The translations under genes and the position numbers were made by a program. Source: Dipteris shenzhenensis (lineage: Eukaryota). Taken from it: 64,000 nucleotides of DNA. The stretch lies in assembly GCA_047967505.1 (NCBI GenBank), contig CM106538.1. One strand, written 5' to 3'. The first letter of the stretch is position 1. Each line of letters begins with the position of its first letter. This document shows, piece by piece, positions 27,557 to 58,585 of this stretch. The notes under the pieces are model-generated. The model ran no database searches. It saw nothing but the letters and a program-made list of their open reading frames with translations, and had not been told where the DNA came from.

Positions 27557-27561
27557 AAAGT

Positions 27562-27818
27562 TGACAAAATATAAAGAGGGGAGAGGAGAAGAGTGGAGAT
27601 GAGGAGAGAGGGCATAGCGAGAGAGCACACCACAAATGACTAACTATACACTAGATTTAGTTGAAAAAATAGAATATATACAAACCCATTTAGGGTTAGG
27701 GTTAGGGGATCTAACCCTTTCCTTTATAGCACTCTATAAGGTTAGTACTATGCACATATGATCACATGATGGTGCTATGCACACATGATCACATGATGTT
27801 GAGCATGAACTCTCAACA
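27562..27818 (-). repeat. 3' LTR of C2
   Basis: TGACAAAA..TCTCAACA, adjacent to PPT (ccttccctc on +). Confidence 0.95.
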
Positions 27819-28178
27819 CCTTCCCTCAAGGTCAACATCATGAAGTAGGCCTTCCCTCAAGATGATGATTCTAGGGAATCGAAGAAAGACTGAGCATTAC
27901 ATTCCATCACACCCCTTTAATGGGAATGTCCTTCCTTTGCATCAAACCAAGAGCTAGTCGGTGTTTCTCAGATAGCTCTTTACCGAGTGGTTTGGCAAAG
28001 ATGTCTGCAACATTCTCTTTGCTATCACAATGCTGTAGTGTGATGTCACCAAGTAACACTCTTTCTCTGATGAAGTGCTCTCTGACATCAATGTGCTTTG
28101 TCCTGGAGTGATATACACTGGATTTTTGGCCAATTCTTGAGCCGATTGATTATCACAATATATTGTTGTTGGCTTAGA

Positions 28179-28435
28179 TGACAAAATATGAAGAGGGGAG
28201 AGGAGAAGAGTGGAGATGAGGAGAGAGGGCACAGCTAGAGAGCACACCACAAATGACTAACTGTACACTAGAATTAGTTGAAAAAATAGAATATATACAA
28301 ACCCTTTTAGGGTTAGGGTTAGGGAAGCTAACCCTTTCCTTTATAGCACTCTATAAGGTTAGTGCTATGCACATATGATCACGTGATGGTGCTATGCACA
28401 CATGATCACATGATGTTGAGCATGAACTCTCAACA
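28179..28435 (-). repeat. 3' LTR of C1
   Basis: Near-identical to 35265-35521. Confidence 0.97.
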
Positions 28436-28523
28436 CCTTCCCTCAAGATCAACATCATGAAGTAGGCCTTCCCTCAAGATGATGATTCTGGGGAATCGAA
28501 GAAGGACTGAGCATTACATTCCA

Positions 28524-31500
28524 TCACACCCCTTTAATGGGAATGTCCTTCGTCTGCATCAAACCAAGAGCTAGTCGGTGTTTCTCGAATAGCTCTTTAC
28601 CGAGTGGTTTGGTAAAGATGTCTGCAACATTTTCTTTGCTATCACAATGCTGCAGTGTGATGTCACCAAGTAACACTCTTTCTCTGATGAAGTGCTCTCT
28701 GACATCAATGTGCTTTGTTCTGGAGTGATATACTGGATTTTTGGCCAATGCTTGAGCCGATTGATTATCACAGTATATTGTTGTTGGCTTTGACTCATCA
28801 AAGTAATCTATTTCTGACAATAGTCTTCTGAGCCATATAGCCTCACATGCACCTGTAGTGAGTGCCCTATATTCTGCTTCAGTCGAAGACAAAGAAACAG
28901 TTGGCTGTTTGTTTGACAACCATGATATAGCACCTTGACCAAGGAAGAATGCATATCCCTGTGTCGATCTCCTGGTCTCATGATCTCCAGCATAGTCACT
29001 ATCACAGTATCCATGCAACCGTGGATGACTTCCTCTGTATTCTATCCCAAATTGTCTTGTACCTCTGATGTATCTCAAGACTCTTTTGGCTGCATTCCAG
29101 TGAGACTGTTTTGGATTTGCCATAAATTGTGCTAGTGAGCTTACTGCATAACAAATATCTGGCCGTGTGATTGTCAGATATATAAGAGATCCAATGAGTT
29201 GCCTGTAGTATCTGTCATTGACTGTAGGCTTTTCTGAATCTTTAGTAAGTTTCAAACTCTGTTCCATGGGAGTGGCTGCAATCTTGCAATCTGCCATATG
29301 AAACTTCTTCAGGAGACTGTCAACATATTTGAGCTGACTCATGAATGTGCTATCTGAATCTCTCCAGAACTCAATTCCAAGACAATAGTGCATAAGTCCA
29401 AGATCTTTCATGTCGAACTCTGCAGATAAGTCTTGTTTTAGCTTTCTGATGAAGCTATCCTTGCTTCCTGTCACAATCAGATCATCTACGTACAAAAGTG
29501 CAATAGTAATATCCTCCCCTTGAACTTTGTAGTAGAGAGTATGATCTGCATTGGACTTCATGTATCCCAGATCAGCAAAATGCTTGTCAATCCTGTTGTA
29601 CCAACTTCTGGGTGCTTGCTTTAAGCCATAGAGACTTTTCTTGAGATGGCAAACCTTGTTCTCCTGTCCTGGTTCAACATAACTGGCTGGTTGTTGCATG
29701 TAGACTTTTTCGTCTAGATAACCATTGAGAAATGCATTCTTGACATCGAGCTGATACACATTCCATTTACTGAGTGTTGCTAGTGATATCAAGAACCGTA
29801 TGGAATCCATCTTTGCTACTGGAGCATAAGTCTCATCATAATCTTGACCATATTGTTGTGCAAATCCTTTTGCAACTAATCTGGCTTTGTATCTCTGAAT
29901 ACTGCCATCTGGATTGTACTTCACTTTGTATACCCATTTGTTGGCTATGGCCTTCTTTCCTGGTGGAAGGTCGCATAATTCCCAAGTGTTATTTTTATAC
30001 AAAGCATCCATTTCTTCATTCATTGCAGTTTGCCATTCTGGCTTATCTACTGCGTCTTCGAAGTACACTGGCTCTTCTGTAGCCATGATGGTAGTCATAA
30101 GAGCATAGTTGGTGGTTTCCACCTGAATTGCTAATCTGGCTGGTGGTCTGCTTTCCCTAGTAGACCGTCTGAGCTGCTGTGACGCTGATTGGGGTGTTGC
30201 TGGCAATTCTTGCTCTTCTTCATCAACCTGTTCTGTAGATGACTGTGAAGTCGATGCTTCTATCTCCTGTGTAGGTAAGGTTTTCCATTCTGATTCCTCA
30301 TCGAAGATTACATCTCTGGAGATAATGACTTTGCGGTTGATGGGATCATACAATTTGTATGCTTTACTTTCTTCACTGTAGCCAACCATGATGCATTTGC
30401 GTGACTTCGCATCCAATTTCCTGCGATGATCATCATGTATGTGGGCATATGCTATGCAACCAAATATGCGGAGATGCCCAATGCGTGGCTTGTGTCCAGT
30501 GAATGCTTCATAAGGAGTCATACCTTGTATCGGTTCGGTAGGAAGCCGATTAAGCAAGTAGTTAGCTGTAGCTATTGCTTCTGCCCAATACTGATTCGGA
30601 AGATGCTTTTCACTAAGCATTGCTTTAGCACTGTCTGCTAAAGTCCCATTCTTCCTTTCAGCTATTGCATTTTGCTGAGGAGTATCTGCACATGTGAATT
30701 GTCTTCGAATGCCGTGAGTTTTGCAAAAGTTCATGAAGGCTGAAGACATGTATTCATCTCCTCTGTCTGATCTCATGACCTTGATTTTTCTGCCTGTCTG
30801 GTTTTCTACCATGGCTTTGAATTCTTGAAATCTGGCAAACACTTCAGATTTTTCTTTCAGAAAGTAGACCCAACAATATCTGCTGTAGTCGTCGATGAAG
30901 GTCAAGTAATAAAGTGAACCATTGATGCTGCGGGTCTGGGCATAACCCCATACATCTGTATGAATTAAATCAAGAATACCTCGTGCACGAGAGGTACTTC
31001 TGACAAAGTTGGTTCGCTTTTGTTTGCCGAAGCAGCATGCTTCACAAACCTTTCCAAGAAACTGTAGCTTCGGAATCCCAATTGCCATATTTTGATTCCT
31101 TAGATCTAACAAGTACTTGAAGTTGACATGACCATATCTCTTGTGCCATTTTGCAGATAGTGGCATCTGTTGCATTTGAGCTGACATGGCATGTTTATCT
31201 GGTACTATAGCTAGCATCCTGTATAAGCGTCCTTCCTTGACACCTTTTGCTACTAGCTGACCTCTTTTGGATTTGTCTCTGATAGTGCATTCATCACCGT
31301 CGAAGATGACTTTGTAGTTGTGTTCCGTCATTTGACCTACTGACAAAAGTTTCTTGCTGAGCTTCGGAACATAGAGCACATCTTTGACTAATCCTTTTGT
31401 ACCAGTGAAATTGTTCATAGGGATAACTCCTGTCCCTTGAACCGGATTCGGTGTATTGTCTGCTGTATAGATGACATTCTTTTGACCTTCTAATGGCTTC

Positions 31501-31850
31501 ATTTCTGTGAACCATTCCTGATGATTTGTCATATGAGATGATGCACCGCTGTCGATGTACCAAGGATCCTGTTCCACTTGGTCGACTTGATAGCTGAAAT
31601 CTTCTTTGGGATTGAAATCAGTGTCTAGGTGCATTGTATCAGTCTGATGCAATTCCTCACTTGCAAGAAACATATTTCCATGTTCATTTGCAAAATGACT
31701 GTGACTAGAATGTCCACCACGATGATTTCCTCTTCCTCGGGAATTCCCTCTATTACTGTTGGATTGACCGCCTTGGTCATACTGCTTCTTGCGGCAATCT
31801 CTTTCATAGTGCCCAAACTTGTGACAATAGTTGCATTGAATGTTTGACAC
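28524..31850 (-). CDS. pol: Copia polyprotein (Zn knuckle, protease, integrase, RT, RNase H); open frame of 1108 aa
   Basis: CNYCHKFGHYERDC, WYIDSGASSHM, IHTDVWG, TPQQNAIAE, QLDVKNAFLNG, LYVDDL, YCDSDYAG, ADIFTK. Confidence 0.95.
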   Translation of the reverse strand: MSNIQCNYCHKFGHYERDCRKKQYDQGGQSNSNRGNSRGRGNHRGGHSSHSHFANEHGNMFLASEELHQTDTMHLDTDFNPKEDFSYQVDQVEQDPWYIDSGASSHMTNHQEWFTEMKPLEGQKNVIYTADNTPNPVQGTGVIPMNNFTGTKGLVKDVLYVPKLSKKLLSVGQMTEHNYKVIFDGDECTIRDKSKRGQLVAKGVKEGRLYRMLAIVPDKHAMSAQMQQMPLSAKWHKRYGHVNFKYLLDLRNQNMAIGIPKLQFLGKVCEACCFGKQKRTNFVRSTSRARGILDLIHTDVWGYAQTRSINGSLYYLTFIDDYSRYCWVYFLKEKSEVFARFQEFKAMVENQTGRKIKVMRSDRGDEYMSSAFMNFCKTHGIRRQFTCADTPQQNAIAERKNGTLADSAKAMLSEKHLPNQYWAEAIATANYLLNRLPTEPIQGMTPYEAFTGHKPRIGHLRIFGCIAYAHIHDDHRRKLDAKSRKCIMVGYSEESKAYKLYDPINRKVIISRDVIFDEESEWKTLPTQEIEASTSQSSTEQVDEEEQELPATPQSASQQLRRSTRESRPPARLAIQVETTNYALMTTIMATEEPVYFEDAVDKPEWQTAMNEEMDALYKNNTWELCDLPPGKKAIANKWVYKVKYNPDGSIQRYKARLVAKGFAQQYGQDYDETYAPVAKMDSIRFLISLATLSKWNVYQLDVKNAFLNGYLDEKVYMQQPASYVEPGQENKVCHLKKSLYGLKQAPRSWYNRIDKHFADLGYMKSNADHTLYYKVQGEDITIALLYVDDLIVTGSKDSFIRKLKQDLSAEFDMKDLGLMHYCLGIEFWRDSDSTFMSQLKYVDSLLKKFHMADCKIAATPMEQSLKLTKDSEKPTVNDRYYRQLIGSLIYLTITRPDICYAVSSLAQFMANPKQSHWNAAKRVLRYIRGTRQFGIEYRGSHPRLHGYCDSDYAGDHETRRSTQGYAFFLGQGAISWLSNKQPTVSLSSTEAEYRALTTGACEAIWLRRLLSEIDYFDESKPTTIYCDNQSAQALAKNPVYHSRTKHIDVREHFIRERVLLGDITLQHCDSKENVADIFTKPLGKELFEKHRLALGLMQTKDIPIKGV

Positions 31851-32760
31851 ATTGGTGGATGCATTCCCTCGTCCTTGGAATCTTCCTCTGTTGGAATGAT
31901 TTCCTCTTTGCTGATTTTGATGTTGCTGAGGATGCTGCTGATGCTGATGCTGATTCTGACTTTGATTTTGACCACTTTTCTGATATGATCTACCTCTGTT
32001 TCTGCCTTTGCCTCTGCTTCTGTCTGAAGCTGTGAATGCCTGATCATTACAATGACCTTTACGTGCTTGAATGGCCTAAATCCTGAGTTCTTCACCAAGT
32101 AGAACTGACTGAAGTTCTTCAAGTGTTGGAATTTGCCGTTGGATGGCAATACTCTGGACCAGATTCTCATATCCTTCTCCTAGTCCATTCAGGATTACTT
32201 GAACCATTTCTGCGGGATTCATAGTTTCTCCTGCTGCTGCAAGTTGATTGTTGTAGTCTTTGATGCGGAGTACATAAGCATGACCAGTTTCATTGCTATT
32301 GCGGAAACTCTGGTTGATCTGGTTTCTCAGGGTGAGAATCCTGGATGTGTTCTTGGACTCGTAGAGAGCTGCGAACATATCCCATGCTTCTTTTGATGTC
32401 TTGACTGTGTTGAGCTGTCCTAGCATGACATCTTGCACATTCTACTTGATCAGGTGATAGGCATACTTATCTTTCTTATCCCATTCTGCTTGAGCTCGGG
32501 CAATGGCAGGATCTGCTACTGGTGCGGAAACTGTTTGTGTAGATGTAGATCCCGATGTAGATCCCGTTGCTGGTGCTGTGACAACAGATGGAGTAGAGCT
32601 ACTCGTGGCTGGATCGGCCAATGGTCTAGGTATGGAACCATCAACATACTCCCATTTGTCCTGAAGCACAAGAATGGTCTCCATTCGGTATTTCCATGTA
32701 CCGTAATTGGAGTTGTCTAACTTAGCAGATGCCTCTAGATTGAGGTTGCTAGTCGACATG
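31851..32760 (-). pseudogene. gag: C1 gag, in frame with pol but with two TAG stops (32442-32444, 32076-32078)
   Basis: MSTSNLNLEASAKLDNSNYGTWKYRME..HLIK*NVQD..EELRI*AIQ.. Confidence 0.88.
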
Positions 32761-33650
32761 GTGCAAACAATGTACTCAAAAGTGTCCTGAAAAAACTCTG
32801 TATGAATCAACTGCAAATACACTGAAGATGCCAAGTGAAATCTCTGTACCGTCGGTGAAGATAGAACTGCAGTAAATAAGATCTGACCTGTGTTACAAGG
32901 CTTGTGGCAATGATGCCGGGAATAGCCAAGAGGCTTTACAAGGCTGAAAAATGATGTGCACGATGCCGTGAGATAGCCAAATAGGCTTTACAATGGTGGC
33001 ATGTGTGTCTGAAATCAAGTGCTATCTGCCCACTGAATCAATCTGCAATGCCTCTGAACTCTGAAGTCTGCTCACTGAACTGATGAACGTAAGATTTCAG
33101 GTAATGTAATGATGTGAAATCGGATGTGAGCGTATGGACTGACTCCGAGTAGGTACTAGTCGGGAATTTTGGGCATGGCTTAGATTGGCAACTTGGGGAA
33201 TTCAAAGCGTCCCCTCTATGGCGATCTAGTCTACTCTGATCTAGATCTAAACCAACCGTCGATCGATGAAAGAGCAGCAAATAATTCCTTTTCCTTTGTT
33301 CTTTTTAAGTGCTGGGTCAGATGCGTCGATGTAGAGGCAAATGTGCGTGAAGGAAGTGGTTTTGTCGGCGAAGCTCAAATGTGAGTGTAACTTGCGCCGA
33401 AATGTGCGCGTGATGTAACGAGCGCGTAGAGCACAAAAAATCGAGCGACTTTCCTTTTTGGAGCACCCTCAAATTCTTCCTGGATCAAGAGATATGACTT
33501 GATCTAGGTGGAGGGGCAAAAGGAGTGCAAATGGTGCTCAATGATGATGTGTCACTGTGAGTCACATGCAGTGATGATGTGGCACTGTGCTTAGCAAGAG
33601 GTGTGCCAGTGAAGCTCTGTGCTGAGGTGGCAGTGCTGAGGTGTCACTGA

Positions 33651-33920
33651 TGACGTGGCACTGATGACGTGGCAGTAATGACGTGGCAGCTGACGTGGCA
33701 GTGATGACATGGCAGCTGACATGGCAGTGATGATGTGGCACAGATGACGTGGCACAAGTGACGTGGCAGATGACGTGGCCTGATGATGTGGTAGAGGTGA
33801 CGTGGTAGGTGACGTGGCAGAATGACGTGGACTGCTTACGTGGCGCTGATGATGTGGCTCCGATGGTGACGTGGCAGATAAGATTGTCTGATGACGTGGT
33901 AGATGGATAAGGGCCACGTG
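33651..33920 (+). promoter_or_regulatory. Array of about 12 TGACGTGG (Hex/ABRE-type bZIP sites) in the C1 leader
   Basis: TGACGTGG(C) repeated at 12-14-bp spacing, plus TACGTGGC and CCACGTG. Confidence 0.6.
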
Positions 33921-34538
33921 TCACAAGGAGGCCGATCGAAATCTTTGAGATTCTGACGGAATCTCAAAGATTCCGTCTTCTTCTTCGAATGAGCCGTCAA
34001 TGGAGCTGGGTTGAAGAAGCCGCCGTTCGAGGCGTTGTAGGAGGCGTCGCTCGACGAAGAGGCTTGGAGCGCTGCACGAAGGAGGTCGCCGGAGTTCGTG
34101 GGAGCTGTTCGTAGCGAGAGGAGTTGGGAGACGAGGGCGCTGTAGAAGGCTATGGCGGCCGTGGAGCTATGAATGGCGGCCGTGGAGAGCTCTTGTGAGG
34201 TCGCTGTAGTAGCTGTATCGCGTTGCACGAGCGCCCGAGACCAAGAGCTTGGGCTCTGTCTTCGTGTTGTTTTGACGGGCAAGGCTTGAAGCGAGAATGC
34301 GTGGAGGCAGAGTTCGTTTGGAGCCTTCAAGGCTTTGTTGGAGAAGACTCGTTGATGAGCTTGTTGATGGGAGCCTTCGCGGCTGTGTGCAGATGGAGGG
34401 GCGCTTCGTTGTAGCGTAAGCTTGTTGTAGCTAGGAGCTTGCACAGGGACTGTTGTCGCTCGTAGTTGATGGAGCGCAGTTGAAGTACGTGTCTCTCGTT
34501 GGAAGGCTAGGGAGCTTGGCACGCCTGAAGGTGTTGCA

Positions 34539-34844
34539 GACTATACGGCTTTGCTCCCCGATGAGTGTTTAGCTTGCATCTTTCAAAAGATGTGCGCCAC
34601 TGATCGCAATCAGTGCTCTCTTGTATGCAAGCGCTGGCACTCGGTGGAGGGGCAGGGACGCCAACGCCTTTCCCTCCTTGCGCACGCTGAGATTGTTTCG
34701 CATCTGCCAGCCCTCTTCACTCGATTCGACCATGTCACCAAGCTTGCTCTCAGATGCGACAGGAAGACTGCTAGCATCACTGACACGGCTCTCTTTTTAG
34801 TCGGCCGAAACTGTATCCATTTGAGGAAGCTCAAGCTCAAAGGT
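34539..34844 (+). pseudogene. Captured fragment of a VIER F-box (VFB)/SKIP2-type F-box-LRR gene, antisense inside C1
   Basis: DYTALLPDECLACIF..CSLVCKRWHSVEGQGRQRLSL..LPALFTRFDHVTKLALRCDRK..LRKLKLKG; no ATG; truncated at both ends; lies between C1 PBS and gag. Confidence 0.9.
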
Positions 34845-35252
34845 TCGTCGTTTGCAGTGGAGCTGTAGTATGTCCCTCTCCAGTCCTCAAACTCTGAAAA
34901 AAAGGACTCTTACTCCCTGGCTTTTCTTTCCATCAACAACTCTCTTTTTCTCTCAAAGACAAGATTTCCTCCTCCAAATCTCAACCTCACGGAACTCTCC
35001 CTATCTTTCTCACAAAGATAATGGATGGACAATCTCTCTCTCACTCATAATGGAAGTCCTCACAAAGAATGAACGGAATGAATAACTCTCTCAAATGACG
35101 GAAATCTCTCAAGAACAAATGACGGAAATCTTCTTCCGATGGACGGAATTTTCTCTCAACGGAAGAGAATGGAACACTCAATCTCTCTCAATCTCTCAAT
35201 CTCTCAATCACTCTCACAAGAAGGATGGCGCCTCAACGGAAGGCAGAACCAT

Positions 35253-35264
35253 GCTCTGATACCA
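35253..35264 (-). other. PBS of C1 (TGGTATCAGAGC, tRNA-iMet)
   Basis: Directly follows the 5' LTR on the minus strand. Confidence 0.95.
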
Positions 35265-35521
35265 TGACAAAATATGAAGAGGGGAGAGGAGAAGAGTGGA
35301 GATGAGGAGAGAGGGCACAGCTAGAGAGCACACCACAAATGACTAACTGTACACTAGAATTAGTTGAAAATATAGAATATATACAAACCCTTTTAGGGTT
35401 AGGGTTAGGGAAGCTAACCCTTTCCTTTATAGCACTCTATAAGGTTAGTGCTATGCACATATGATCACGTGATGGTGCTATGCACACATGATCACATGAT
35501 GTTGAGCATGAACTCTCAACA
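35265..35521 (-). repeat. 5' LTR of C1
   Basis: TG..CA termini; followed by PBS. Confidence 0.97.
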
Positions 35522-35526
35522 TTAGA

Positions 35527-37741
35527 ATCATCAAAGTAATCTGTTTCTAACAATAGTCTTCTAAGCCATATAGCCTCACATGCACTTGTAGTGAGTGCTC
35601 TATATTTTGCTTTAGTCAAAGACAAAGAGATAGTTGGCTGTTTGTTTGACAACCATGATATAGCACCTTGACCAAGGAAAAATGCATATCCCTGTGTCGA
35701 TCTCCCGGTCTCATGATCTCTGGCATAGTCACTATCATAGTATCCATGCAACCGTGGATGACTTCCTCTCTATTCTATCCCAAATTATCTTGTACTTCTG
35801 ATTTATCTCAAGACTCTTTTGGCTGCATTCCAATGAGACTGTTTTGGATTTGCCATAAACTGTGCTAGTGAGCTTACTGTATAATAAATATCTGGCCATG
35901 TGATTGTTAGATATATAAGAGATCCAATGAGTTGCCTGTAGTTTCTGTCATTGACTATAGGCTTTTTTGAATCTTTAGTAAGTTTCAAACTCTGTTCCAT
36001 AGGAGTGGCTACAATCTTGCAATCTGCCATATGAAACTTCTTCAGGAGACTGTCAACATACTTGAGCTGACTCATGAATGTGCTATCTGAAGTTCTCCAA
36101 AACTCAATTCCAAGACAATAGTGCATAAGTCCAAGATCTTTCATGTTGAATTCTGCAGATAAGTCTTGTTGCAGTTTTCTAATGAAGCTATCCTTGATTC
36201 CTATAACAATCAGATCATCTATGTATAAAAGTGCAATAGGAATGTCTTCCCCTTGAACTTTGTAGTAGAGAGTATGATCTGCATTGGACTTCATGTATCC
36301 TAGATCAGCAAAATACTTGTCGATTCTGCTGTACCAACTTTTGGGTGCTTGTTTTAAGCTATAGAGGCTTTTCTTGAGATGGCAAACCTTATTCTCCTTT
36401 CCTAGTTCAACATAACCTACTAGTTGTTACATGTAGACTTCCTCGTCTAGATAACCATTGAGAAATGTATTCTTGACATCGAGCTAATACACATTCCATC
36501 TGCTGAGTGTCGCTTGTGATATCAAGTACCATATGGAATCCATCTTTGCTACTGGAGCATAAGTCTCATCATAGTCTTGACCATATTGTTGTGCAAATCC
36601 TTTTGTAACTAGTTTGGCTTTGTATCTCTGAATACTGCCATCTGGGTTGTACTTCACTTCTGAGTACACTGTATCAGTCTGATGCATTTCCTCGCTTGCA
36701 AGAAACATATTACCATGTTCATTTGCAAAATGACTATGACTAGAATGTCCACCATGATGATTTCCTTTGCCTCAAAAATTCCCTCGATTGCTACTGGATT
36801 GACCTCCTTGGTTGTACTGCTTCTTGCGGCAATCTCTTTCATAGTGTCCAAACTTGTGACAGTAGTTGCATTGAATGCTTGACACATTGGTGGATGCATT
36901 CCCTCGTCCTTGAAATATTCCTCAGTTGGAATGATTTCCTCTTTGTTGATTCTGATGATGCTGATGCTGATTTTGTTGCTGATGATGACCACTTTTTTGA
37001 TATGATCTACCTCTGCCTCTGCCTGATCATTAGAATGACCTTTACATGCTTGAATTTCCTGAGTTCTAAGTTCTTCACAAAGTAGAACTGACTGAAGTTC
37101 TTCCAGTGTCGGAATTTGCCATTGAATGGCAATACTCTGGACTAGATTCTCGTATCCCTCTCTCAGTCCATTTAGAATGACTTGAACCATTTCTACGAGG
37201 TTCATAGTCTCTCCTGCTGCTGCAAGTTGATTGTTGTAGTCTTTTATGCAGAGTACATAAGCATGACCAGTTTCACTGCTGTTGCGGAGACTCTGGTTGA
37301 TCTGGTTTCTCAGGGTGAGAATCCTGGATGTGTTCTTGGACTTGTAGAGAGCTGCGAACATATCCCATGCTTCTTTTGATGTCTTGATTATGTTGAGCTA
37401 TCCTAGCATGACATCTTGCACATTCTACTTGATCAAATGATAGGCATCCTTGTCTTTCTTATCCCATTCTGCCTGAGCTCAGGCAATGGCAGGATCTGCT
37501 ACTGGTGTAGAACTATTTGTGCCACTGTAGATGTCATTGTAGATCCTGTTGCTGGTGCTATGACAATAGATGTAGTAGAGCTACTAGTGGCTGGATCAGC
37601 CAATGGTCTAGGTGTAGACCCATCGACATACTCCCATTTGTCTTGAAGTACAAGAATTGTCTCCATTCAATATTTCCATGTACTGTAATTGGAGTTGTCT
37701 AACTTAGCAGATGCCTCTAGATTGAGGTTGCTAGTCAACAT
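35527..37741 (-). pseudogene. C2 gag-pol remnant (gag joined to RT/RNase H; continues at 27909-28173)
   Basis: Junction QTDTVYS|EVKYNPDGSIQRY near 36660; LYIDDL; YYDSDYARD. Confidence 0.92.
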
Positions 37742-39967
37742 GGTGCAAGAAACGTACTCAAAAGTGTCGTGAAAATCTCTGTATGAATCAACTGCAAATA
37801 CACTGAGTATGCCAAGTGAAATCTCCAAACCATTGGTGAAGATAGAACTGCAATATATAAAATCTGATCTATATTACAAGGCTTGTGGCAATGATGCTGG
37901 GAATAGCCAAGAGGCTTTACAAGGCTGAAATGATGTGCACGATGCCGTGAGATAGCCAAATAGGCTTTACAATGTTGGCATGTGTGTGTGAAATCAAGTG
38001 TTATCTACCCACTAAATCAATCTGCAATGCCTCTGTACTCTCTGAAGTCTGCTCACTGAACTGATGAACGTAAAGTTTCAGGTAATGTAATGATGTGAAA
38101 CCGTATGTGAGTGTATGGATTGACTTCGAGTAGGTACTAGTCAGGAATTTCGGGCATGGCTTAGATTAGCAACTTGGGGAAATTCAAAGTGTCCCCTCTA
38201 TGGCAATCTAGTCTACTCTAATCTAGATCTATACCAACCATGGATTGATGAAAGGACAACAAATAATTCCTTTTCTTTTATTCTTTTTAAGTGCTGGGTC
38301 AGATGTGTCGATGTAGAGGCAAATGTGCATGAAGGAAGTGGTTTTGTTGGCGAGGCTCAAATGTGAGTGTAGCTTGCACCAAAATATGTGCATGATGTCA
38401 CAAGCGCATAGAGCACAAAAAAATGAGCGACTTTTCTTTTTGGAGTACCCTCAAATTCTTCATGGATCAAGAGATATGACTTGATCTAGGTGGAGGGGCA
38501 AAAGGAGTGCAAATGTGCTCAATGATGATGTGTCACTGTGGGTCACATGTAGTGATGATGTGGCACTATGCGTGCCCACAAAAATCAGTGCTCATTGGAT
38601 AGCTGAGATGGCATAAATGATGATATCAGTAGATGACATGGCAATGTTGACATGACAATGATGATGTGGTTGGTGATGTGACAGTGATGATGTGGCTGCC
38701 ACCGTGGTAGATGAGGTGGCAGATAATTCTGACATGGTGAGTGCGGGAGATTATTGATGTTGCAAGTGGGGTTGATGTGGCAAATAAGGAGATAAGGCCA
38801 CGTGTTAGGATGTAGTGCCCCAAAATCTGGGAAAGATGCCAACAGAATCTTTGGGATTCTGTCGTCTTCTCCGTCATTGGTCTTGAATGTTGAGCTTTGT
38901 GGAGGCGATGGAACGTTGTTGGCGAGTAGCCCGTTGGCTCTCTATAAGAATTGCTAATGAAGAAGCTTGCTGTTCGAGAGCCGAGATCATGAGCCAGTCG
39001 TTGGTGTTGGAGATATCGCTATTGTGCGGGATCGCTGCTTGGATTCAAGCTTGGAGCTTTGCAGGGACGTCACTACTACTGGAGAAGGTTGTATTCCTTG
39101 GAGGTTGTAGAGAAGTGCATTGGAGCATAGGAAGGAGCCTTAGAGCTCCTTAGTGCAGTCAGGCCATGAGCGTTGAGTCGAGGAACTTGGCGCAGAAGCT
39201 CTATTGGAAGCTTTGAGTTTGTAAGAGATAAAAGCAGGTCAAGGCTGAACACAAATGCAAGTCGAAGCATGTGCGTGGAAGCTTGCTGGAGCGTGCTAAG
39301 TCATCGATGATGTGTGCAGTGTTAGAGCAGCCAGTCGTTGTAGGAGGCTTTTCTTGGTGTAGAGGCTATCGTTGTTGGGCTAGAGTAGGGCTGGAGTAGT
39401 CGACTAAAAGACGACTATTGGAGAAGCTTCTTGAGCTGGTGGACATAGGCTAAGCACAGGACGTCATCGGCACTGGCAGTCAACGTATTGAAGGAGCTGG
39501 TGAGCTATAGTCACATAGGTGGCAATTGATGAGCCATGTGAGCTAGGAGCATTGGAGCCATAGGAGCTTGTATATGCTGCACACGGGCTATTGTAGTGCT
39601 GCTACTACAAGCTATGGGTTGTAGAGAAGGGGTTGCCTATGATGGGTGAGGTTGACTATTGACGATGTAGGGCTCAAGGGAATCCCGTGGCTGAACTCCT
39701 ACATTTCTATGCTTGTTGATGATGGTAATTACCTGCATAGCTCAAAACTCTACCTCACTCAATCGGATAGAATACAGAGGAGCAGCTCTCTCTCTCTCTC
39801 TCTCAATAAACAGAAATTCCTCACATGAATGGAATTCTCTCTTTCAATGAACAAAAATCCTTCACTCAACGGAAGTGAACAGAATGAAAGACTACCTCTC
39901 AATCTCTCAATCTCACACTCTCAAGGATTGCAATGCCTCAGCAGAAGGCAAGGGAGCTCTGATACCA

Positions 39968-40224
39968 TGACAAAATATGAAGAGGGGAGAGGAGAAGAGT
40001 GGAGATGAGGAGAGAGGGCATAGCTAGAGAGCACACCACAAATGACTAACTGTACACTAGATTTAGTTGAAAAAATAGAATATATACAAACCCATTTAGG
40101 GTTAGGGTTAGGGGATCTAACCCTTTCCTTTATAGCACTCTATAAGGTTAGTGCTATGCACATATGATCACATGATGGTGCTATGCACACACGATCACAT
40201 GATGTTGAGCGTGAACTCTCAACA
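39968..40224 (-). repeat. 5' LTR of C2
   Basis: Followed on the minus strand by PBS TGGTATCAGAGC. Confidence 0.95.
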
Positions 40225-40229
40225 AAAGT

Positions 40230-49592: not shown

Positions 49593-51443
49593 CTAACTAA
49601 GGAAGACTTGGTTTCCCAAATCTTCATTTTTGTCGAGGATGGCTTGTGTGTTGATGTAGTAGCGCTTCAGTCGGCTCCCATTTATTGTTGTGTTGAATTG
49701 GACTCCATCTAGTGTTTCAAGTAGCACAGCTCTGATGGGATTCATCTTTCGTACTCGGTAGGGTCCTTGACCTAGATACTTCAGTTTTCCCTTGTGTACT
49801 TTGGCATTGTATAACAGGACTAAGTCGCCTTCCTTGATGTCTTTAGCTTTCAGATTCCTGTCAAACCATGCCTTTCTTCTGCATTTTTCTGTTGTCATGG
49901 CATGGTAGGAGACTAGTCTTGTCTTTGTATGCTTTTCCAACTGACAGAGCCTTTCTTTCAAGGACTCATGATCACCCATGCGTTCTTGTACTGTGATGCG
50001 TAGACTTGGTATTACAAATTCGAGTGGGACCATGGCTTCAAGGCCATACACCAATTGAAAAGGTGTGTTCCCTGTACTGACCTTGAATGTGGTTCTGTAT
50101 GCCCATAAGGCTGCATTCAATTTCTCTGCCCAATCAAAACGCTGTGGTTCTACTACCTTGGTGAGGATATTGCATATGATTTTGTTTGTGGATTCTGCTA
50201 GTCCATTCCCTTGGGGGTAGTAGGGTGTGCTTTTTCTATGAATTACCATGAAGCCAGACAAGAGTTCTTGGATTACCTCATTGAAAAAATGTGTGCCTCT
50301 ATCCGATACAATTTCAATGGGGCATTCGAATCGAGTGATCACATTTTCGTATAAGAATCTTGCTGTGCTTCTGGCATCTGCCTTTCTGACTGCTTTAGCT
50401 TCAGCCCATTTTGTAAAGTAATCAGTGGCCACAATGATGTAGCGTGCCTGTGTTCCTTTTGCTGCTGGATTATGGGACCCACATAGTCAATCCCCCATTT
50501 TTCAAATGGTTGTTGTGCAACAGTTGGTGTTAGGGGATTGAAGTCTTTGTGTTGTGGTTTAATAGTCCATTGGCATACATCAGAGCCTTTTACATATTCA
50601 TAGGCATCTGCCCATAGTGTTGGCCACCACTAGTAGCCTACGAGGAGAACTTTTCTTGCTGTGGCTTCCCCTTGGAAGTGTCCTCCTACAATACCTTCAT
50701 GGACTTCACTCAAGATTGGCAGGATCTCATGAGGCATTACACATCTTCTTAATATCTGGTCCTTGCCCATCTTGTACAGTTGTCCTGCAATGAGTTGATA
50801 GGGTGCAGCCTTTAGAATCACTTTTCTGGCATCTACTGCTTTCATGTCAGGGGGTGGTCTTCCTGCCATCAAGTACCCAATGATATCGCCACACCATTCT
50901 GGAACATCATCTATTTGAAATAGTGTGGCATCTGGTAAGTCGTCTTCTACTCCAGTGGCTTCTTCTCCTGACTTGACTCGAGACATGTGATTGGCAATGT
51001 AGTGTTGGGCACCTTTGCGGACCACGAATTTGAAGTTGAATTCTTGCAGCAAGAGGAGCCATCTGGTTATTCTTCCTGTGGTACACGGACGGTTCACAAG
51101 ATAAAGCAATGCTTGATGGTCGGTGTAGAAGACAAAATCATTTGCGAGTAGATAGTGCCAAAATTTCTTTACACTATACACCATTGCTAGGGCTTCTCTT
51201 TCTGTGGTTGTATAGTTGATCTCTGCATCATTGAATTGTCGACTGGCGAAGTAGACAGGGTAGTCTTTCTTATGTTCACCAGGTTGACAAAGCACACTCC
51301 CAATTGCATACTTGGATCCATCAGTATGAACATGAAAATCAATATCCCAATTGGGAGATATAAGGATGGGTGCTGTGATTAGGCACCATTTTAAAAGCTC
51401 AAAGGCTTGGTCGCACTCTTCAGTCCATAAGAACTCCACAAAG
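49593..51443 (-). pseudogene. pol: B RT connection, RNase H and integrase
   Basis: FHVHTDGSKYAIG, NYTTTEREALA, TDHQAL, DYFTKWAEA, SDRGTHF, YPQGNGLAE, GQGPYRV. Confidence 0.93.
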
Positions 51444-54159
51444 GTTATTCAACTGCGGAGGTTCAACTTTTGGGAGCTCGACTGCCATTAGGGCATGCAG
51501 AATGGCTAGGTCATTATCAAAGATTTGATCTTCAATTTCAGCATTCGCAGCCTCTGTTTCAAGGTCCCAAGGAAAATCTGAGTCATCATTGGTATGTGTA
51601 CCTTCTTCAGGTTCATTATACCATTCGAGGTCAACCATAAAGAATGGCATCTCTAGATCGATTGGTTCTTCATGTGTCAGTGGAGGATCGACCTGTAGTG
51701 CATTAGCATCTATCTGTGAGAAGATGGGGTCTAATGAATGGCAGTTGTCGATGGCTGCCAATTTTGCTCGAGATTGTCGTGGAAGATGTGTCATCCAATG
51801 CTCTAGGCACAATTGGTTTAATGGCTCCTGTCCCCACATTCACCCTGACTGCAGTGTCTTGATTCTGGATTGTCAATCTATTAGTTCCCCAGTCATGGAG
51901 GACTGATGCTGCCCGTAACCAAGGATGTCCAAGTAAGATTTGATAGGATTTTTTGGGGAGATCCAAGATTGTGAATTGAAGGGAAAAGCGAACTCCTGCA
52001 ATTTTTGTGGACACACCATTCACTATTCCCAAGGGTTTAGCCCGTGAATCATCAGTAAGGCGTATGTTGAAATTAGCCTTTTGCATTGGTGGGAGACCCC
52101 ATTCTTCGTAGAGCTCCTTTGATAGGACATTGACACCTGATCCACCATCCACTATGGCTTGGACTTCATTATATGCCTTGTAGATCAAAGGCACAATAAT
52201 GTTGCATATGTCATCTCTCTCACCCATCCGCACAGGGATATCTTCAATGTCGTTCATAGGTGGAGGGGGATTTGCGAGTTCAATCCATCCTTTGAAACTC
52301 TCCCAGAGATTGGGACAACTCCGTAAGAGGATTTTGATGGGAATTGAGACATGGCAACTCAGGATGCTAGAGAGTGCGGCTCCTTCAAGTTGACATGGCG
52401 GTACATTCTGTTGTGGAGTCTGTTGTTGGAACAAAGGCTCGAGTACAGTATCAATACTTTGTGGGGCCAAGTCATGGATTGGGTCTTGAGCTTGCTTCTC
52501 AGCCTCAAATTGAGCTTGTTCATTTTGGACCCATTGCTGAAGTACCTGAAAACGAGCCTTCTCCACCTCTGCATTTGGGTATGGAGCTTCTTTTATTTGA
52601 GGCTCGGGAGTTGATGTGGATGAGCTCGACTGCTCATTGCTTAGCGGAGGTGGAGGCACTTGTGCTTTCTTTTTCAGAAGTCGCTTTGGTTGGATTGGAA
52701 TGATAGGGTCCTTCGTGGCCTCTTTCTGTTGGCGTGTAATTACATTGATAGGTTGTGACCTTACACTTGCCAGACCCAGACTTTGATGGTCCACCCCAAT
52801 GATGTCGATGGGGATGTCAAGCTTAACCTCTGTTTGTTCTGGGACCTTATTTTTTATGGGACAATCCATACAGGCATGTCCTATGCCACAATCTCTGCAG
52901 AGTGGTTGGAAAGTAGCTGGGCTACCACGATGAGGGCACTCTGCGATCCGATGATTTTCTCCACAACCGTAACACTTGATTGGTGCTCGATATGTGTTGG
53001 GTCGTACTTGATTTGCATAAACTGGTATGAGACCCTCTGCACCTTCTACATAGTACACTGGGTACTTTGCTTCATACTCAAACAGCGAGTCTACTTCCTC
53101 AGCTTGTAATTGATGTATGGGAACTGCCTGAGGAGCTGGATTTGGTGCTCTTGGATACACTCATGGATTTGGATTCCTGAGTAGTTGTGGGAATTGTGTC
53201 TGAACGGGAACAGGATTTAGCCTTGGAACTGAGGGCGCTTGTGCAAGTGCCGGTTGCCTGTATACTGGCATGGATGCCGCTTGGTATTGTGGAGGTCGAG
53301 GCGGATTGTTGCGCATGTTGAAGATGCAACTGTTCTCATCATGGCCACCGACGACACAGATATGGCATCACAATCATGGCAGTGGATTTGCTTGTGTAGT
53401 GATCCTTGCTCTTAGGACTGGGCATTCATTTGCTGTATGATTTGCCAAGCAGTGTGGGCACCAGACATTTTCTCGCTGTGGATATGTTTGAGTTGGCGGC
53501 TGAGACAAGTGGAGTTTTTGATCCATGGCCTGCATCATATCTTCTTTCAGTTTCAAGGTCATGGCCTCTAGGCGATCTTCATTGGATGTTTCGACAGTGT
53601 CCTTTGATTTACCCTTTTTCGAGCGCTTATCTCGTGTATTTGATCTATCGTCATCACTACTAGTGTCTGAGTCTGTCATGCCATCTTCGATGTCAATGGC
53701 TGCCGCATGAGCAGCATTGAATGTTTCATAGCTACTTATCTTTTTCATATCCTTTCGGATTTTCTTTCTTAGACCTGCTATGAACCATGCCGTGAGGTAC
53801 TTTGCATTTGGGTGTGGGTCACATTTGGCGATCAATCTCTTCATCTTTCCCAGGTATGTGCGTACATCTTCTCTCCGGCCTTGTTCGATCTTGCTGAGTT
53901 GGAGAGCAGGATCATCTTGTAGCCTCTCCGTTTGAAAGCGACGTTTGAATTTGGTTTGAAGTAGGTCCCATGTGGCACGTTCTTCCATGAGAAGGTTGAG
54001 GTACCATTCTGATGCCTCATCAGTTAAGGCCATTGGAAACCAAGCCACCTTGGTTTCATGGGATTGATCACCACCTGCTCGACATGCGACATCAAAATGC
54101 TGGAGGAAGCGAGCTGGGTCTCCCCTACCATTATATTTGGGAAGTTCTAGTTTTCCCAA
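51444..54159 (-). pseudogene. gag: B gag-protease; gag to protease is one frame broken by three TGA codons
   Basis: LPKYNGRGDPARFLQHF..WYLNL..; four Zn knuckles; AIVDGGSGVNVL..ILLGHPWL. Confidence 0.9.
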
Positions 54160-55187
54160 GGGGCGTCGGCCTTGATTATGGTGATTTCATCGATTGAAGA
54201 AGTTTTTAGCCTCTGCATCAAGCTCGATATCCCCATCATGGTCATGACAGCGTCCAGCCATGTTGGGGTGTGGAGGAGTTAAAGGGAGTTGTTGAATCTC
54301 AGGGGGGGATTCGGGGTAGAGGATTGGCAGGGGCGGTGGTTGCAGTGGAGTTAGATGCGGATGGGGCGAGCGTTGGAGTCAAAGTCGTTGGCCGGAACGT
54401 AACTGCATGCAGATTGTGCGTGATTTGCCAAGGGTGTTGCTACCCCAAGTGCGGGTGTGGAGGTGGTGTTGTTAGGAGAGTTAGAGTGGTGTTAGTTTGT
54501 GTAGGGACCGTCGTGTTGATAATGTGCCTAAGATTGTCCTACGTGTGTAGCGAAATGTGCCGGTGCAGACGGATCGTTAATCGGAGGTCACGGCGTGAAA
54601 ATACGAGTGAATTAATGCAAAAAGAGGCCCACATGGGGGCACAAATGAACGTGTGCTAGGGATGCCGAAATGGTGTGCAATGGGCTGGAAAAATACCTCG
54701 TAATGTGCTGTTTCTGTATGTGAAATCTAGGTTCAAACGGGGTTTAGTTTGGGTCCCAAACGGATGAGTTTCGAGGGGTTAAAGTAGGGGTAAATTTTGC
54801 GTTGGGGGGTCCTAATGGTGGTGTGAATGGACTTTAAGTCCAACCGAGGGGTTGAAACCAAGTTGATCTAGTTAGACTAACTGACCTATTTGTCTAGTTA
54901 GAGGCTAATCAATTAGTCTAACCTAGCCTAGTGAGGGTTAGACTGACCATAGTTAGTTCAACTAACGTAGTCAGTGTAAGTAACTACATTTAAGTTAACT
55001 GAGGTAAGGTTAAACTAATCGAACCAAGGGCAAAACTAACCTAGCCTAGGTTTCTGCTAACTAACCTAGCTTAACCTAATCTAACTGAGTTAGACTAACT
55101 AGCCTAGGGTTAACCAACTAACCTAGCCTAACCTAACCTAAGTTAACCAACTAACCTAACCGCAGTTAGTCACTAACCTGAGAGTAG

Positions 55188-56997: not shown

Positions 56998-57810
56998 AAG
57001 GTTGGCTCTTTCCTACTACTTTCGTAGGAAGAGCTGGGTATTCTATGTTTGCAGGGTTCCAAGGCTTTTTGTCACCTACAGATATATTGGGATTGTCGGT
57101 TGTAGTATATGTGTAGCTTAGGACCTCGAGTCGTGTTCCGATGAGAGACGTAGGCTTAAATGTGGTAAGCAAACAAAGTGTATGCATGTGTAAAAGGAAC
57201 GTAAATCATCTTTGTTGAGGTAATGAAGGCTTTCGCCTTCATTGGGGGTTGTAGGATTTAGGAGGAGTTTAAGGGTTCAGAAGGAGGTTCCAGGGTTCAG
57301 AAGGAGGTTCCAGAGTTCAGAAGGAGTTCCAGGGTTCAGAAGGAGGTTCCAGGGTTCAGAAGGAGGTTTCAGAGTTTAGAAAGTGTTCCAGGGTTTAGAA
57401 GGAGGTTTGGTTTGAGGGAGCTTTGTTTGGAATTGCAAACCTTGATGATAGGTGTTTGCAAGATAAAATCGATTTGTGCTTATGGCAAAGCATAACCAGG
57501 GTTCAAAAGGAGGTTCCACGGTTTAGGAAGAGTTCCAGGGTTTAGAAGGAGGTTCCAGGGTTCAAGGTAGAGTACATGGTGGAGAACTCGTCTCCCTCAT
57601 AGATCATGGAGTTTTAAGGGTTGAGGAACAAAGGGTTTAGGGGAGCATAGGAGTGGAAGAGGAAGAAGGTGTAAGAGCATGGGGGAAAGAAGAGAGAGGA
57701 GGGAGGAGGAGGAGAGAGGAGGAGGAGGAGGAGGGAGGAGGAGGAGGAGGAGGAAGGAGGAGGAGGAGGAGGAGGAGGGAGGAGGAGGAGGAAGGAGGAG
57801 GAGGGAGGAG

Positions 57811-58505
57811 TGTTAGAGTTAGCTCAAATGTCCACCTCTCATGTAACCCACCAATATTCTGTGTACCCAATGTTGTAAGGCCCCCATATGAGGAGAAGCC
57901 ATGATGGGTATCAGATATTGGGAGGGATCCCCAGTTTAGACACTGGAAGGGGTCTTAGAGTAGACCAGATGGTTATGAGACGGCTTAGGAGCCAAGAGTA
58001 GATACCCGTCTGCACAAAGGGGGGGTTCGGGGGGGCGATAGCCCCCCCGATAGCAGGGGGTCCGGGGGGCGCAGGCCCCCGGTGGGGGTCTGGGAGCAAA
58101 GCCCCCAGCGGTAGGGTCCGGGGGCTGCCGGTAGCCCCAGGCCCGACGGTATGACCTATGCGCGATCCTTCATCTGCCCGACGGCATGTTTTCTGAAGGG
58201 TCGGTGGTCTTCCAGGCCGACTGTCTATTAGGCCGACTGCCTATTACAGGGCCGACCGTCAACCACTTACACTATATAAGTGGCCACCCCCTATCATCAG
58301 ATCACCAGTTCTTCACGCTCATAGTCCTCCGTCCAGCATCTGTCTAGATCACCATCGAAGCTCTGTCTGTAGAGCGCACGGGTGGACAGCCAACCATCAG
58401 TTGTATCAGCAGTTTGGTATATCAGAATTTTTTGTATTCTCTCCAGCTTTTCCATCGTGTACTTGCGTTTTGTTGTTATCTTCCGCTGCGTACTATTTTC
58501 TTACA
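57811..58505 (+). repeat. 5' LTR of A
   Basis: TGTTAG..TTACA; TATATAA at 58273. Confidence 0.97.
58200..58279 (+). promoter_or_regulatory. DRE/CRT (RCCGAC) cluster immediately upstream of the LTR TATA box
   Basis: GCCGAC at 58216, 58232 and 58251; GTCGGT at 58200; TATATAA at 58273. Confidence 0.55.
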
Positions 58506-58585
58506 TGGTATCAGAGCTCAGGCTATCTGAGTAACGACTTTATTGCAAGTTCAACGAGCTTTGTTAGCAAAGGCTACTAGGAGTG

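What the first reader, a model, noticed from the sequence alone, without database searches (positions are those of the whole stretch)
34539..34844. Host VFB/SKIP2-type F-box gene fragment transduced antisense in a young Copia leader
Seen: about 100 uninterrupted codons spanning an F-box and the first LRR region, inside the LTR-bounded C1 and antisense to its genomic RNA; not seen in C2 or C3. Established: the motifs match plant VIER F-box/SKIP2 SCF adaptors as I recall them. Inference: recent gene capture. Element RNA would be antisense to the host mRNA, so siRNAs could couple element silencing to the host gene. A sense transcript could give a truncated F-box decoy.
Basis: partly seen in the sequence, partly recalled or inferred. 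Interest (0 to 1): 0.8.

Follow-up and report, generated by a model that had tools for sequence, protein, structure and literature searches.

The report
F-box gene piece inside a Copia retrotransposon
A young Copia retrotransposon in what looks like a fern genome carries, backwards in its long untranslated leader, a well-preserved 312-base piece of a host F-box gene, which is a real but ordinary case of gene-fragment capture by a transposon.

Summary
Window 34470-34865 (+) is a 132-codon open frame. Codons at 34533/34539-34844 match VFB/SKIP2-type F-box/LRR proteins (Pfam F-box E=1.3e-10; best full-length hit 82% identical, E about 1e-50). No other part of that gene is in the window.

The piece lies inside a complete Ty1/Copia element, C1 (28179-35521, minus strand). 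C1 has 257-bp LTRs that differ at one position, a PBS, a PPT and the 5-bp target duplication TTAGA. C1 is nested in an older, internally deleted copy, C2 (27562-40224, duplication AAAGT). The piece sits in C1's 2.5-kb leader, antisense to the element. C2 and C3 lack it.

It keeps 28 of 28 positions that are at least 95% conserved in 104 homologues, so neutral divergence since capture is probably below about 5%.

The donor gene could not be found: no whole genome is held, and the host is absent from the protein database.

A truncated F-box "decoy" is unlikely, because there is no in-frame ATG upstream of the F-box. siRNA cross-talk with the donor is possible, is a published idea, and was not tested here.

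Verdict: a real new member of a known kind (gene-fragment capture by LTR retrotransposons), of modest interest.

The parts
34533..34844 (+). Captured fragment of a VFB/SKIP2-type F-box/LRR gene: 104 codons holding the F-box and the first LRR region, equal to residues 55-158 of the 526-aa homologue P0001
   Evidence: tblastn and alignment; Pfam F-box; 104 homologues; 28 of 28 highly conserved positions kept
34470..34868 (+). Stop-to-stop open frame of 132 codons plus its TAG stop that contains the fragment. It has no in-frame ATG before residue 41 (34590-34592). Its first 21-23 and last 7 codons are not homologous to the gene
35265..35521 (-). 5' LTR of Copia C1 (257 bp, TG...CA)
   Evidence: 1 mismatch in 258 aligned bases against the 3' LTR; alignment A2
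35253..35264 (-). Primer binding site TGGTATCAGAGC, directly after the 5' LTR
   Evidence: That this motif pairs with initiator tRNA-Met is recalled, not tested
32760..35252 (-). C1 leader (5' UTR, 2493 nt) from the PBS to the gag ATG. The fragment lies inside it
   Evidence: gag ATG at 32759; PBS
34870..35252 (-). GA/T-rich first part of the leader, shared in part with C2 (35086-35252 matches 39798-39966) and similar in style to C3
33990..34530 (-). C-rich part of the leader (C 0.39, G 0.19 on the element strand). It cannot be aligned with the same part of C2 or C3 but shares 7-mers with them in excess, so it is probably native and fast-evolving. Its origin is not settled
33619..33865 (.). 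14-nt tandem repeat array of the leader, present in all three copies
32076..32759 (-). gag of C1 with two in-frame TAG stops: 32444-32442, shared with C2, and 32078-32076, found in C1 only
28527..32075 (-). Open pol frame of C1 (1183 aa): protease barrel, integrase, SH3, RVT_2, in Copia order
28436..28444 (-). Polypurine tract GAGGGAAGG next to the 3' LTR
28179..28435 (-). 3' LTR of C1
35522..35526 (.). Target-site duplication of C1 (TTAGA on the + strand), upstream copy
28174..28178 (.). Target-site duplication of C1 (TTAGA on the + strand), downstream copy
27562..40224 (-). Older Copia C2 that hosts C1. Its LTRs are 39968-40224 and 27562-27818 (97.7% identical), its duplication is AAAGT at 40225-40229 and 27557-27561, and it has an internal deletion

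Best explanation
A lineage of a Ty1/Copia retrotransposon in a fern-like host picked up an internal 312-bp piece of a single-exon VFB/SKIP2-type F-box/LRR gene. The piece covers about codons 55-158 of roughly 520 and sits in the long untranslated leader, in reverse orientation.

Shown: the copy that carries it, C1, is a complete and recent insertion with near-identical LTRs and its own target duplication, nested in an older copy. The fragment lies between the PBS and gag, so any full-length element RNA contains 312 nt complementary to the donor mRNA.

Inferred: the piece entered before C1's last round of retrotransposition, by two template switches during reverse transcription or by an equivalent recombination or repair event at short homologies. 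Both junctions show the same short words (AAGGT and TTGCAG on the + strand). The piece is carried as passive cargo. It has no start codon and so makes no protein. Its only plausible activity is as a source of antisense RNA or siRNA matching the donor gene when the element is transcribed or silenced.
For: F-box identity: Pfam E=1.3e-10; 104 full-length homologues with E of 5e-18 or better, best 82% identical over 104 aa.

Position inside the element: LTRs 28179-28435 and 35265-35521 have 1 mismatch in 258. TG...CA ends, the PBS, the PPT and the TTAGA duplication on both sides are present. C1 sits inside C2, which has its own AAAGT duplication. The pol domain order is Copia. The gag ATG is at 32759, so the piece is in the leader.

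Only C1 has it.

Foreign nature of the 312 bp: it shares no excess 7-mers with the C2 or C3 leaders (z from -0.8 to 0.8), whereas the flanking leader parts do (z 3.4 and 3.6 on the left, 2.2 and 3.1 on the right).

Good preservation: 0 of 28 deviations at positions at least 95% conserved, 1 of 37 at 90%, 2 of 44 at 80%, which is like a typical functional homologue. Under neutral mutation the chance of keeping all 28 is 0.043 at 5% divergence and 0.001 at 10%. CpG observed/expected is 0.78.

C1 is younger than C2 and C3: CpG o/e is 0.58 against 0.27 and 0.51 against 0.40 in homologous stretches, and CpG is intact in C1's leader repeats but decayed in C2 and C3.

No nested second transposon: no terminal inverted repeats, poly-A or convincing duplication around the piece.

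Precedent: Bs1 and other LTR-element captures (review PMC13317346, passages). In maize, 3% of Sirevirus Copia elements hold exon fragments, with no orientation bias (10.1101/777037, passages).
Against: No donor gene was found, so 'host origin in this genome', the age of capture and dN/dS remain untested. The best database protein is only 82% identical and comes from an unnamed source. C1's Pol is at most about 44% identical to the listed (best-scoring) database Copia proteins, apart from four partial matches of 46-48% over less than half the query, so the host genome is simply not represented.

Only one copy was seen, so passage through RNA is inferred and not shown. The piece could have entered C1 after integration.

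An antisense orientation is not what a simple minus-strand copy-choice from a sense mRNA gives. It needs an antisense transcript, a switch during plus-strand synthesis, or a DNA-level event.

C1's gag has two in-frame stops, so C1 cannot supply its own Gag.

The 541-bp C-rich stretch left of the piece has CpG o/e 1.12 and GC 0.58 and aligns with neither C2 nor C3. The foreign segment could therefore be larger than 312 bp, up to about 1.1 kb.

Confidence: 0.7

Rival explanations
1. The fragment entered C1 after C1 had integrated at this locus. It would be filler DNA or an ectopic conversion tract copied from the F-box gene during repair of a double-strand break in the leader. It would then be a one-off scar and was never part of the element's RNA.
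For: Only one copy is seen. Short shared words at both junctions fit microhomology-mediated repair as well as template switching. The antisense orientation needs no special explanation at the DNA level. The repeat-rich leader is a plausible fragile site.
Against: The time window is short, since the C1 LTRs differ at 1 of 258 positions. The lineage had far longer to acquire the piece, because C1 and C2 differ by 7-11% in the blastn-aligned internal segments. No test here separates the two explanations.
Confidence: 0.2
2. The piece is cargo of a second, small mobile element (Pack-type DNA transposon, Helitron or retroposed mRNA) that inserted into the C1 leader.
For: Such elements are the commonest carriers of gene fragments in plants (10.1101/777037, passages). 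The same short word TTGCAG lies at both edges.
Against: No terminal inverted repeats flank the piece. The best pairs near it are 12-15 nt at 80-92% and do not bracket it. There is no poly-A next to its 3' end; the nearest A7 is about 50 nt away. The homology to the gene ends within a few bases of sequence that looks like native leader on both sides, which leaves no room for transposon termini.
Confidence: 0.04
3. Assembly artefact: reads of the F-box gene were joined into a repeat-rich Copia leader.
For: The region is nested, repetitive DNA.
Against: The piece is flanked on both sides by leader of the same element. The nested elements have matching duplications and a coherent order of parts. 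A mis-join would more likely break this co-linearity than give a clean 312-bp internal insert from the middle of a coding sequence.
Confidence: 0.03
4. The antisense fragment is kept because it is useful. It would act either as a trigger of siRNAs that tie silencing of the element to the donor F-box gene, or as camouflage that tempers silencing of the element.
For: Every full-length element RNA would contain the antisense of the donor (anatomy). The fragment is undecayed. [quoted passage not shown]
Against: Good preservation is equally expected from youth alone. The maize study reports no clear advantage to the elements (abstract). No small-RNA, methylation or expression data could be examined here.
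Confidence: 0.08

Closest known systems
Bs1 of maize and other LTR retrotransposons with transduced host gene fragments (review PMC13317346, passages read; original Bs1 papers seen only as references there)
   Same: A piece of a cellular gene without a full ORF lies between the LTRs of a retroelement and is carried by it. Aberrant template switching is the mechanism usually proposed.
   Different: Bs1 carries pieces of three genes that became part of a chimeric reading frame. Here there is one 312-bp piece, antisense, in the untranslated leader, with no start codon and no fusion to gag.
Exon fragments captured by Sirevirus (Copia) elements in maize, and the 'epigenetic conflict' model (Muyle et al., bioRxiv 10.1101/777037; abstract and passages read)
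   Same: A Copia-superfamily element holds an exon fragment, and antisense captures are as frequent as sense ones.
   Different: In maize the Sirevirus captures were mostly of 3' exons (64.2%). Here the piece comes from the 5' part of a single-exon coding sequence. The host is fern-like and not a grass. No siRNA or methylation data are available here.
LTR-captured genes of rice and sorghum (Jiang and Ramachandran 2013, PMC3726574; abstract and passages read)
   Same: Genome-wide, hundreds to over a thousand captured gene sequences lie within LTR retrotransposons, and some have small-RNA loci.
   Different: That survey does not mention orientation, Copia or F-box genes: each of the search terms 'orientation', 'antisense', 'Copia', 'F-box' and 'intron' had 0 occurrences in its main text.
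VFB/SKIP2 F-box/LRR proteins of plants. Names come from database records. Their role as SCF substrate adaptors needed for growth is recalled from the Arabidopsis literature and was not read here; search found only papers that mention them in passing.
   Same: The fragment aligns without gaps to the F-box and first LRR region and keeps every position that is at least 95% conserved in this family.
   Different: Only about 104 of about 520 residues are present. The N-terminal region, the start codon and the LRR body that would bind substrates are all missing.

Membership tests
Ty1/Copia LTR retrotransposon (element C1) | Two direct LTRs with TG...CA ends | tested here: met
   257-bp LTRs at 28179-28435 and 35265-35521, 1 mismatch in 258 aligned
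Ty1/Copia LTR retrotransposon (element C1) | 5-bp target-site duplication | tested here: met
   TTAGA at 28174-28178 and 35522-35526
Ty1/Copia LTR retrotransposon (element C1) | PBS after the 5' LTR and polypurine tract before the 3' LTR | tested here: met
   TGGTATCAGAGC at 35253-35264 and GAGGGAAGG at 28436-28444. The tRNA assignment is recalled
Ty1/Copia LTR retrotransposon (element C1) | Domain order gag - protease - integrase - reverse transcriptase (RVT_2) | tested here: met
   Pfam: Retrotran_gag_3; Pol_BBD 172-254; rve 370-465; RVT_2 695-938
Ty1/Copia LTR retrotransposon (element C1) | Intact gag-pol (autonomy) | tested here: not met
   Two in-frame TAG stops in gag. C1 is a structurally complete but non-autonomous or decayed member
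VFB/SKIP2-type F-box/LRR protein gene | F-box domain | tested here: met
   PF00646 E=1.3e-10, above its cut-off
VFB/SKIP2-type F-box/LRR protein gene | Closest relatives are members of this family | tested here: met
   All 104 hits are 471-1106-aa proteins, and all but one (P0076) carry an F-box Pfam family (PF00646, PF12937 or PF18511) next to LRR families. Many are named SKIP2, VFB or At1g47056 by their sources
VFB/SKIP2-type F-box/LRR protein gene | Complete coding sequence with a start codon and the C-terminal LRR body | tested here: not met
   Only residues 55-158 are present, there is no upstream ATG, and there is no other piece in the window. It is a fragment and not a gene
Gene fragment captured or transduced by an LTR retrotransposon | Cellular-gene homology located between the LTRs of one element | tested here: met
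Gene fragment captured or transduced by an LTR retrotransposon | Donor gene present elsewhere in the same genome | not testable with these tools
   No whole genome is held, and the host is not represented in the protein database
Gene fragment captured or transduced by an LTR retrotransposon | The same fragment and junctions in further transposed copies (proof of passage through RNA) | not testable with these tools
Pack-type DNA transposon or Helitron carrying the fragment (considered) | Terminal inverted repeats or characteristic termini with a duplication bracketing the fragment | tested here: not met
   None among 19 inverted and 23 direct repeat families (the 20 largest listed) in 33900-35300

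The most novel reading that the evidence does not exclude
The antisense F-box piece is more than cargo. Because it lies in the leader of a recently mobile Copia lineage, every element transcript is a long antisense RNA to a host SCF adaptor gene. siRNAs raised against the element would then also hit the donor, or the host would spare the element to protect the donor. That would be a fern example of the epigenetic-conflict or camouflage model. A related bold reading is that the middle of this family's leader is a 'cargo slot', because about 1 kb there is mutually unalignable in all three copies.
Probability: 0.08. Interest if true: 0.6.

Novelty: new member of a known kind. Interest (0 to 1): 0.3.

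Why it matters
Gene-fragment capture by LTR retrotransposons is documented mainly in grasses. This is a clean, young example with resolved element borders, from a host that looks like a fern by its best named protein hits. It could serve to date a capture and to test siRNA cross-talk between an element and an SCF adaptor gene. It changes no concept. Its practical value is for annotation: the 132-codon frame is a transposon-borne pseudo-exon and should not be called a gene.

Tried and rejected
- Whole genome: none is held for this window, so the donor gene and family copy number could not be sought.
- Sequencing runs: 5 of 11 listed rows hold part of 33950-35130 and none holds half. The best shares are 0.26, 0.23 and 0.21, in three studies and two coded organisms. 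I could not tell which part they hold, or whether it is the whole stretch at about 95% identity. No RNA holder was listed.
- A search for fragment-sized proteins of 72-231 aa found none. The 'shorter' range was not searched.
- Exon-border idea: the fragment is bounded by ...CAG| and |GT..., which looks like splice sites. I rejected this as a conserved exon. In 12 of 14 plant loci from metagenomes (L001-L012), the homologous coding sequence is one uninterrupted tblastn match across both fragment ends. L013 stops at residues 146-149 and L014 is cut by its contig end. These loci are only 52-63% identical to the fragment and so come from distant plants. The donor's own structure is unknown.
- The 234-codon open frame on the element strand (33836-34540) has no Pfam hit and no methionine, and lies in C-rich sequence that is poor in stop codons. 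I treat it as compositional.
- Nested DNA transposon: no termini were found.
- F-box decoy protein: rejected, because the frame has no start codon before the F-box.
- Alignment of the three leaders' middle parts found nothing beyond patches of 35-147 nt.
- A literature search for fern examples of LTR capture ('fern', 'LTR retrotransposon', 'captured', 'gene fragment') listed 12 of 27 papers, and none of those titles or abstract starts describes one. Supplements were not consulted.

Full report
**1. The observation**

The + strand has a stop-to-stop open frame of 132 codons at 34470-34865, followed by TAG. Pfam finds an F-box in it: PF00646 with E=1.3e-10 and 41.2 bits against a cut-off of 20.5. 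PF12937 and PF18511 are also above their cut-offs. The match covers ORF residues 29-59.

A search restricted to longer proteins gave 104 hits with E between 1e-50 and 5e-18. All are 471-1106-aa proteins, and all but one (P0076) carry an F-box Pfam family next to LRR families. Many are named SKIP2, VIER F-box protein or At1g47056 by their sources.

The alignment and tblastn show that homology is confined to 34533/34539-34844. That corresponds to residues 55-158 of the best hit P0001 (526 aa, 82% identical). The first 21-23 and last 7 codons of the open frame are not homologous. With 7 full-length queries, no other place in the 64-kb window matched (next best E=0.45).

**2. The host**

The best named hits are ferns (Adiantum, Ceratopteris; 65-72% identity), ahead of liverworts, gymnosperms and angiosperms. 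Three unnamed proteins are closer, at 77-83%. I therefore call the host fern-like, but it is not identified.

The Pol of the element is at most about 44% identical to the listed (best-scoring) database Copia proteins, apart from four partial matches of 46-48% over less than half the query. The host genome is evidently not in the protein database, so the lack of a near-identical donor protein is a database gap and not a finding.

**3. Anatomy of the surroundings**

Self-comparison and an alignment of the four LTR copies with their flanks resolve a nested pair of elements on the minus strand.

- **C1 = 28179-35521.** Its two 257-bp LTRs, 35265-35521 and 28179-28435, start TG and end CA and differ at 1 of 258 aligned positions.
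- The 5' LTR is followed at once by TGGTATCAGAGC (35253-35264). This is the usual Copia primer-binding motif; that assignment is recalled.
- The 3' LTR is preceded by the purine tract GAGGGAAGG (28436-28444).
- TTAGA flanks C1 on both sides, at 28174-28178 and 35522-35526.
- **C2 = 27562-40224.** C1 interrupts it. C2 has LTRs that are 97.7% identical, its own PBS, the duplication AAAGT on both sides and an internal deletion.
- **C3** (about 19415-23627) is a third, truncated copy.

Pfam on C1 gives Retrotran_gag_3 in gag. In a 1183-aa open frame it gives protease barrel, gag_pre-integrs, rve, SH3 and RVT_2, which is the Copia order.

The gag ATG is at 32759. Gag has two in-frame TAG stops, one shared with C2 and one private to C1. 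The leader between the PBS and gag is 2493 nt, and the F-box piece lies in it on the opposite strand.

**4. What exactly is foreign**

The three leaders share an order of parts:

1. PBS
2. a GA/T-rich part
3. a C-rich part of 0.5-1 kb
4. a 14-nt tandem repeat
5. a conserved stretch
6. gag

The C-rich parts do not align between any two copies; the best patches are 35-147 nt. They do share base composition (C 0.32-0.39, G 0.17-0.19 on the element strand). They also share an excess of same-strand 7-mers: 74 against 45±8.5 expected and 82 against 50±8.9, z=3.4 and 3.6, compared with 19 and 27 against the reverse complement.

The 312-bp F-box piece shows no such excess (z from -0.8 to 0.8) and has a different composition. 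It sits near the border of the GA/T-rich and C-rich parts. About 25 bp to its right (34845-34870) repeat words that are typical of the C-rich part to its left (GTTCGT, GGAGCTGT). That is weak evidence, from direct reading.

I conclude that the securely foreign segment is about 312 bp. The C-rich 33990-34530 stretch is probably native and fast-evolving. Its CpG o/e of 1.12 and GC of 0.58, together with its unalignability, leave open that up to about 1.1 kb is foreign.

**5. Age and state**

C1 is the youngest copy.

- Its LTRs are nearly identical.
- CpG o/e in homologous stretches is 0.58 in C1 against 0.27 in C2, and 0.51 in C1 against 0.40 in C3.
- The leader repeat keeps 8 exact CpG-containing 10-mers in C1. 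C2 and C3 have only one-mismatch versions, nearly all CpG to TpG or CpA.

The F-box piece is undecayed.

- It has no stop or frameshift in 104 codons.
- It has 0 of 28 deviations at positions at least 95% conserved among 104 homologues, 1 of 37 at 90% and 2 of 44 at 80%. This is like a median functional homologue.
- P0001 is closer to the fragment (81.7%) than to any other homologue in the set (76%).
- In a neutral-mutation simulation, all 28 positions survive with probability 0.28 at 2% divergence, 0.043 at 5% and 0.001 at 10%.

C1 and C2 differ by about 7-11% in the blastn-aligned internal segments. The capture is therefore younger than most of the C1-C2 divergence, which fits its absence from C2. 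Youth and constraint cannot be told apart without the donor.

**6. Source molecule and mechanism**

The piece is bounded by ...TTGCAG| on the left and |GTTCGT on the right, which looks like splice sites. In plant DNA recovered from metagenomes, however, 12 of 14 loci (L001-L012) encode the homologous protein as one uninterrupted tblastn match running across both fragment ends. L013 stops at residues 146-149, and L014 is cut by its contig end.

The ends are therefore not conserved exon borders. The piece is an internal chunk of what is, in those distant relatives, a single exon. This also means that introns cannot tell an mRNA source from a DNA source.

Both junctions carry the same short words on the + strand: AAGGT at 34526-34530 and 34840-34844, and TTGCAG at 34534-34539 and 34855-34860. 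This fits copy-choice or microhomology-mediated joining.

There are no inverted termini, no adjacent poly-A and no bracketing duplication, which argues against a nested carrier transposon.

My preferred reading, with probability about 0.7, is capture in the lineage before C1's last transposition. Entry after integration has probability about 0.2.

The antisense orientation needs an antisense template, a switch during plus-strand synthesis or a DNA-level event. That is inference. In maize Sireviruses, captured fragments show no orientation bias (10.1101/777037, passage), so the orientation is not unusual.

**7. Function**

The open frame has no in-frame ATG before residue 41 (34590-34592), which lies inside the F-box match at residues 29-59. 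An F-box decoy protein is therefore unlikely.

By anatomy, any full-length C1-type RNA contains 312 nt complementary to the donor mRNA. siRNA cross-talk is thus possible if the two are still similar enough. That model, with evidence from maize, is already in print. Nothing here tests it.

The most likely state is passive cargo.

**8. Comparison and verdict**

Gene-fragment capture by LTR retrotransposons is well documented:

- Bs1, Veju and BARE-2 (review PMC13317346, passages)
- rice and sorghum surveys (PMC3726574, passages)
- maize Sireviruses, 3% of which hold exon fragments

One literature search found no fern example among the 12 listed of 27 papers.

This is a new member of a known kind. 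It is cleanly resolved, young and antisense in the leader. Interest is about 0.3.

**What could not be done**

Noticed in passing
33619-33865 (C1), 38556-38782 (C2), 21726-22210 (C3): The leader of this Copia family holds a 14-nt tandem repeat whose 10-mer core contains an ACGT/CpG. C1 has 8 exact copies. C2 and C3 have only one-mismatch versions, nearly all CpG to TpG or CpA. The window holds 36 matches against 1.95 expected. The core resembles bZIP/ABRE-type binding sites; that resemblance is recalled and not tested.
   Followed up: partly
33990-34530 (C1), 38760-39640 (C2), 22330-23300 (C3): The C-rich middle of the leader is mutually unalignable in the three copies, although flanking parts are 85-92% identical. 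It still shares composition and excess 7-mers. It may be a hypervariable or repeatedly replaced region.
   Followed up: partly
32444-32442 and 32078-32076 (minus strand): There are two in-frame TAG stops in C1's gag. The first is shared by C1 and C2, which differ by 7-11% in the aligned internal segments, so it was inherited in the lineage. That points to trans-mobilisation or read-through.
   Followed up: no
33836-34540 (minus strand): A 234-codon open frame on the element strand ends exactly at the edge of the F-box piece. It has no methionine and no Pfam hit, so it is probably compositional.
   Followed up: partly
27559-28790: What looks like a 617-bp tandem duplication (95.8% identical) is in fact C1's 3' end (354 bp plus LTR) followed by C2's 3' end. 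This is a by-product of C1 inserting just upstream of that region in C2.
   Followed up: yes
14750-19400: A satellite-like array with a period of roughly 310-400 bp, built of 8-14-nt sub-repeats, abuts the truncated copy C3.
   Followed up: no
57801-63324 (+) and 49596-54186 (-): A second, different Copia has 705-bp LTRs that are 99.4% identical and an open 1274-aa gag-pol. There is also a degraded Ty3/Gypsy (gag, protease, RNase H, integrase). No non-transposon Pfam domain was found among the 12 other large ORFs tested.
   Followed up: partly
23557-23627: Only 71 bp of an LTR (98.6% identical to 35449-35519) remain at the 5' side of C3.
   Followed up: no
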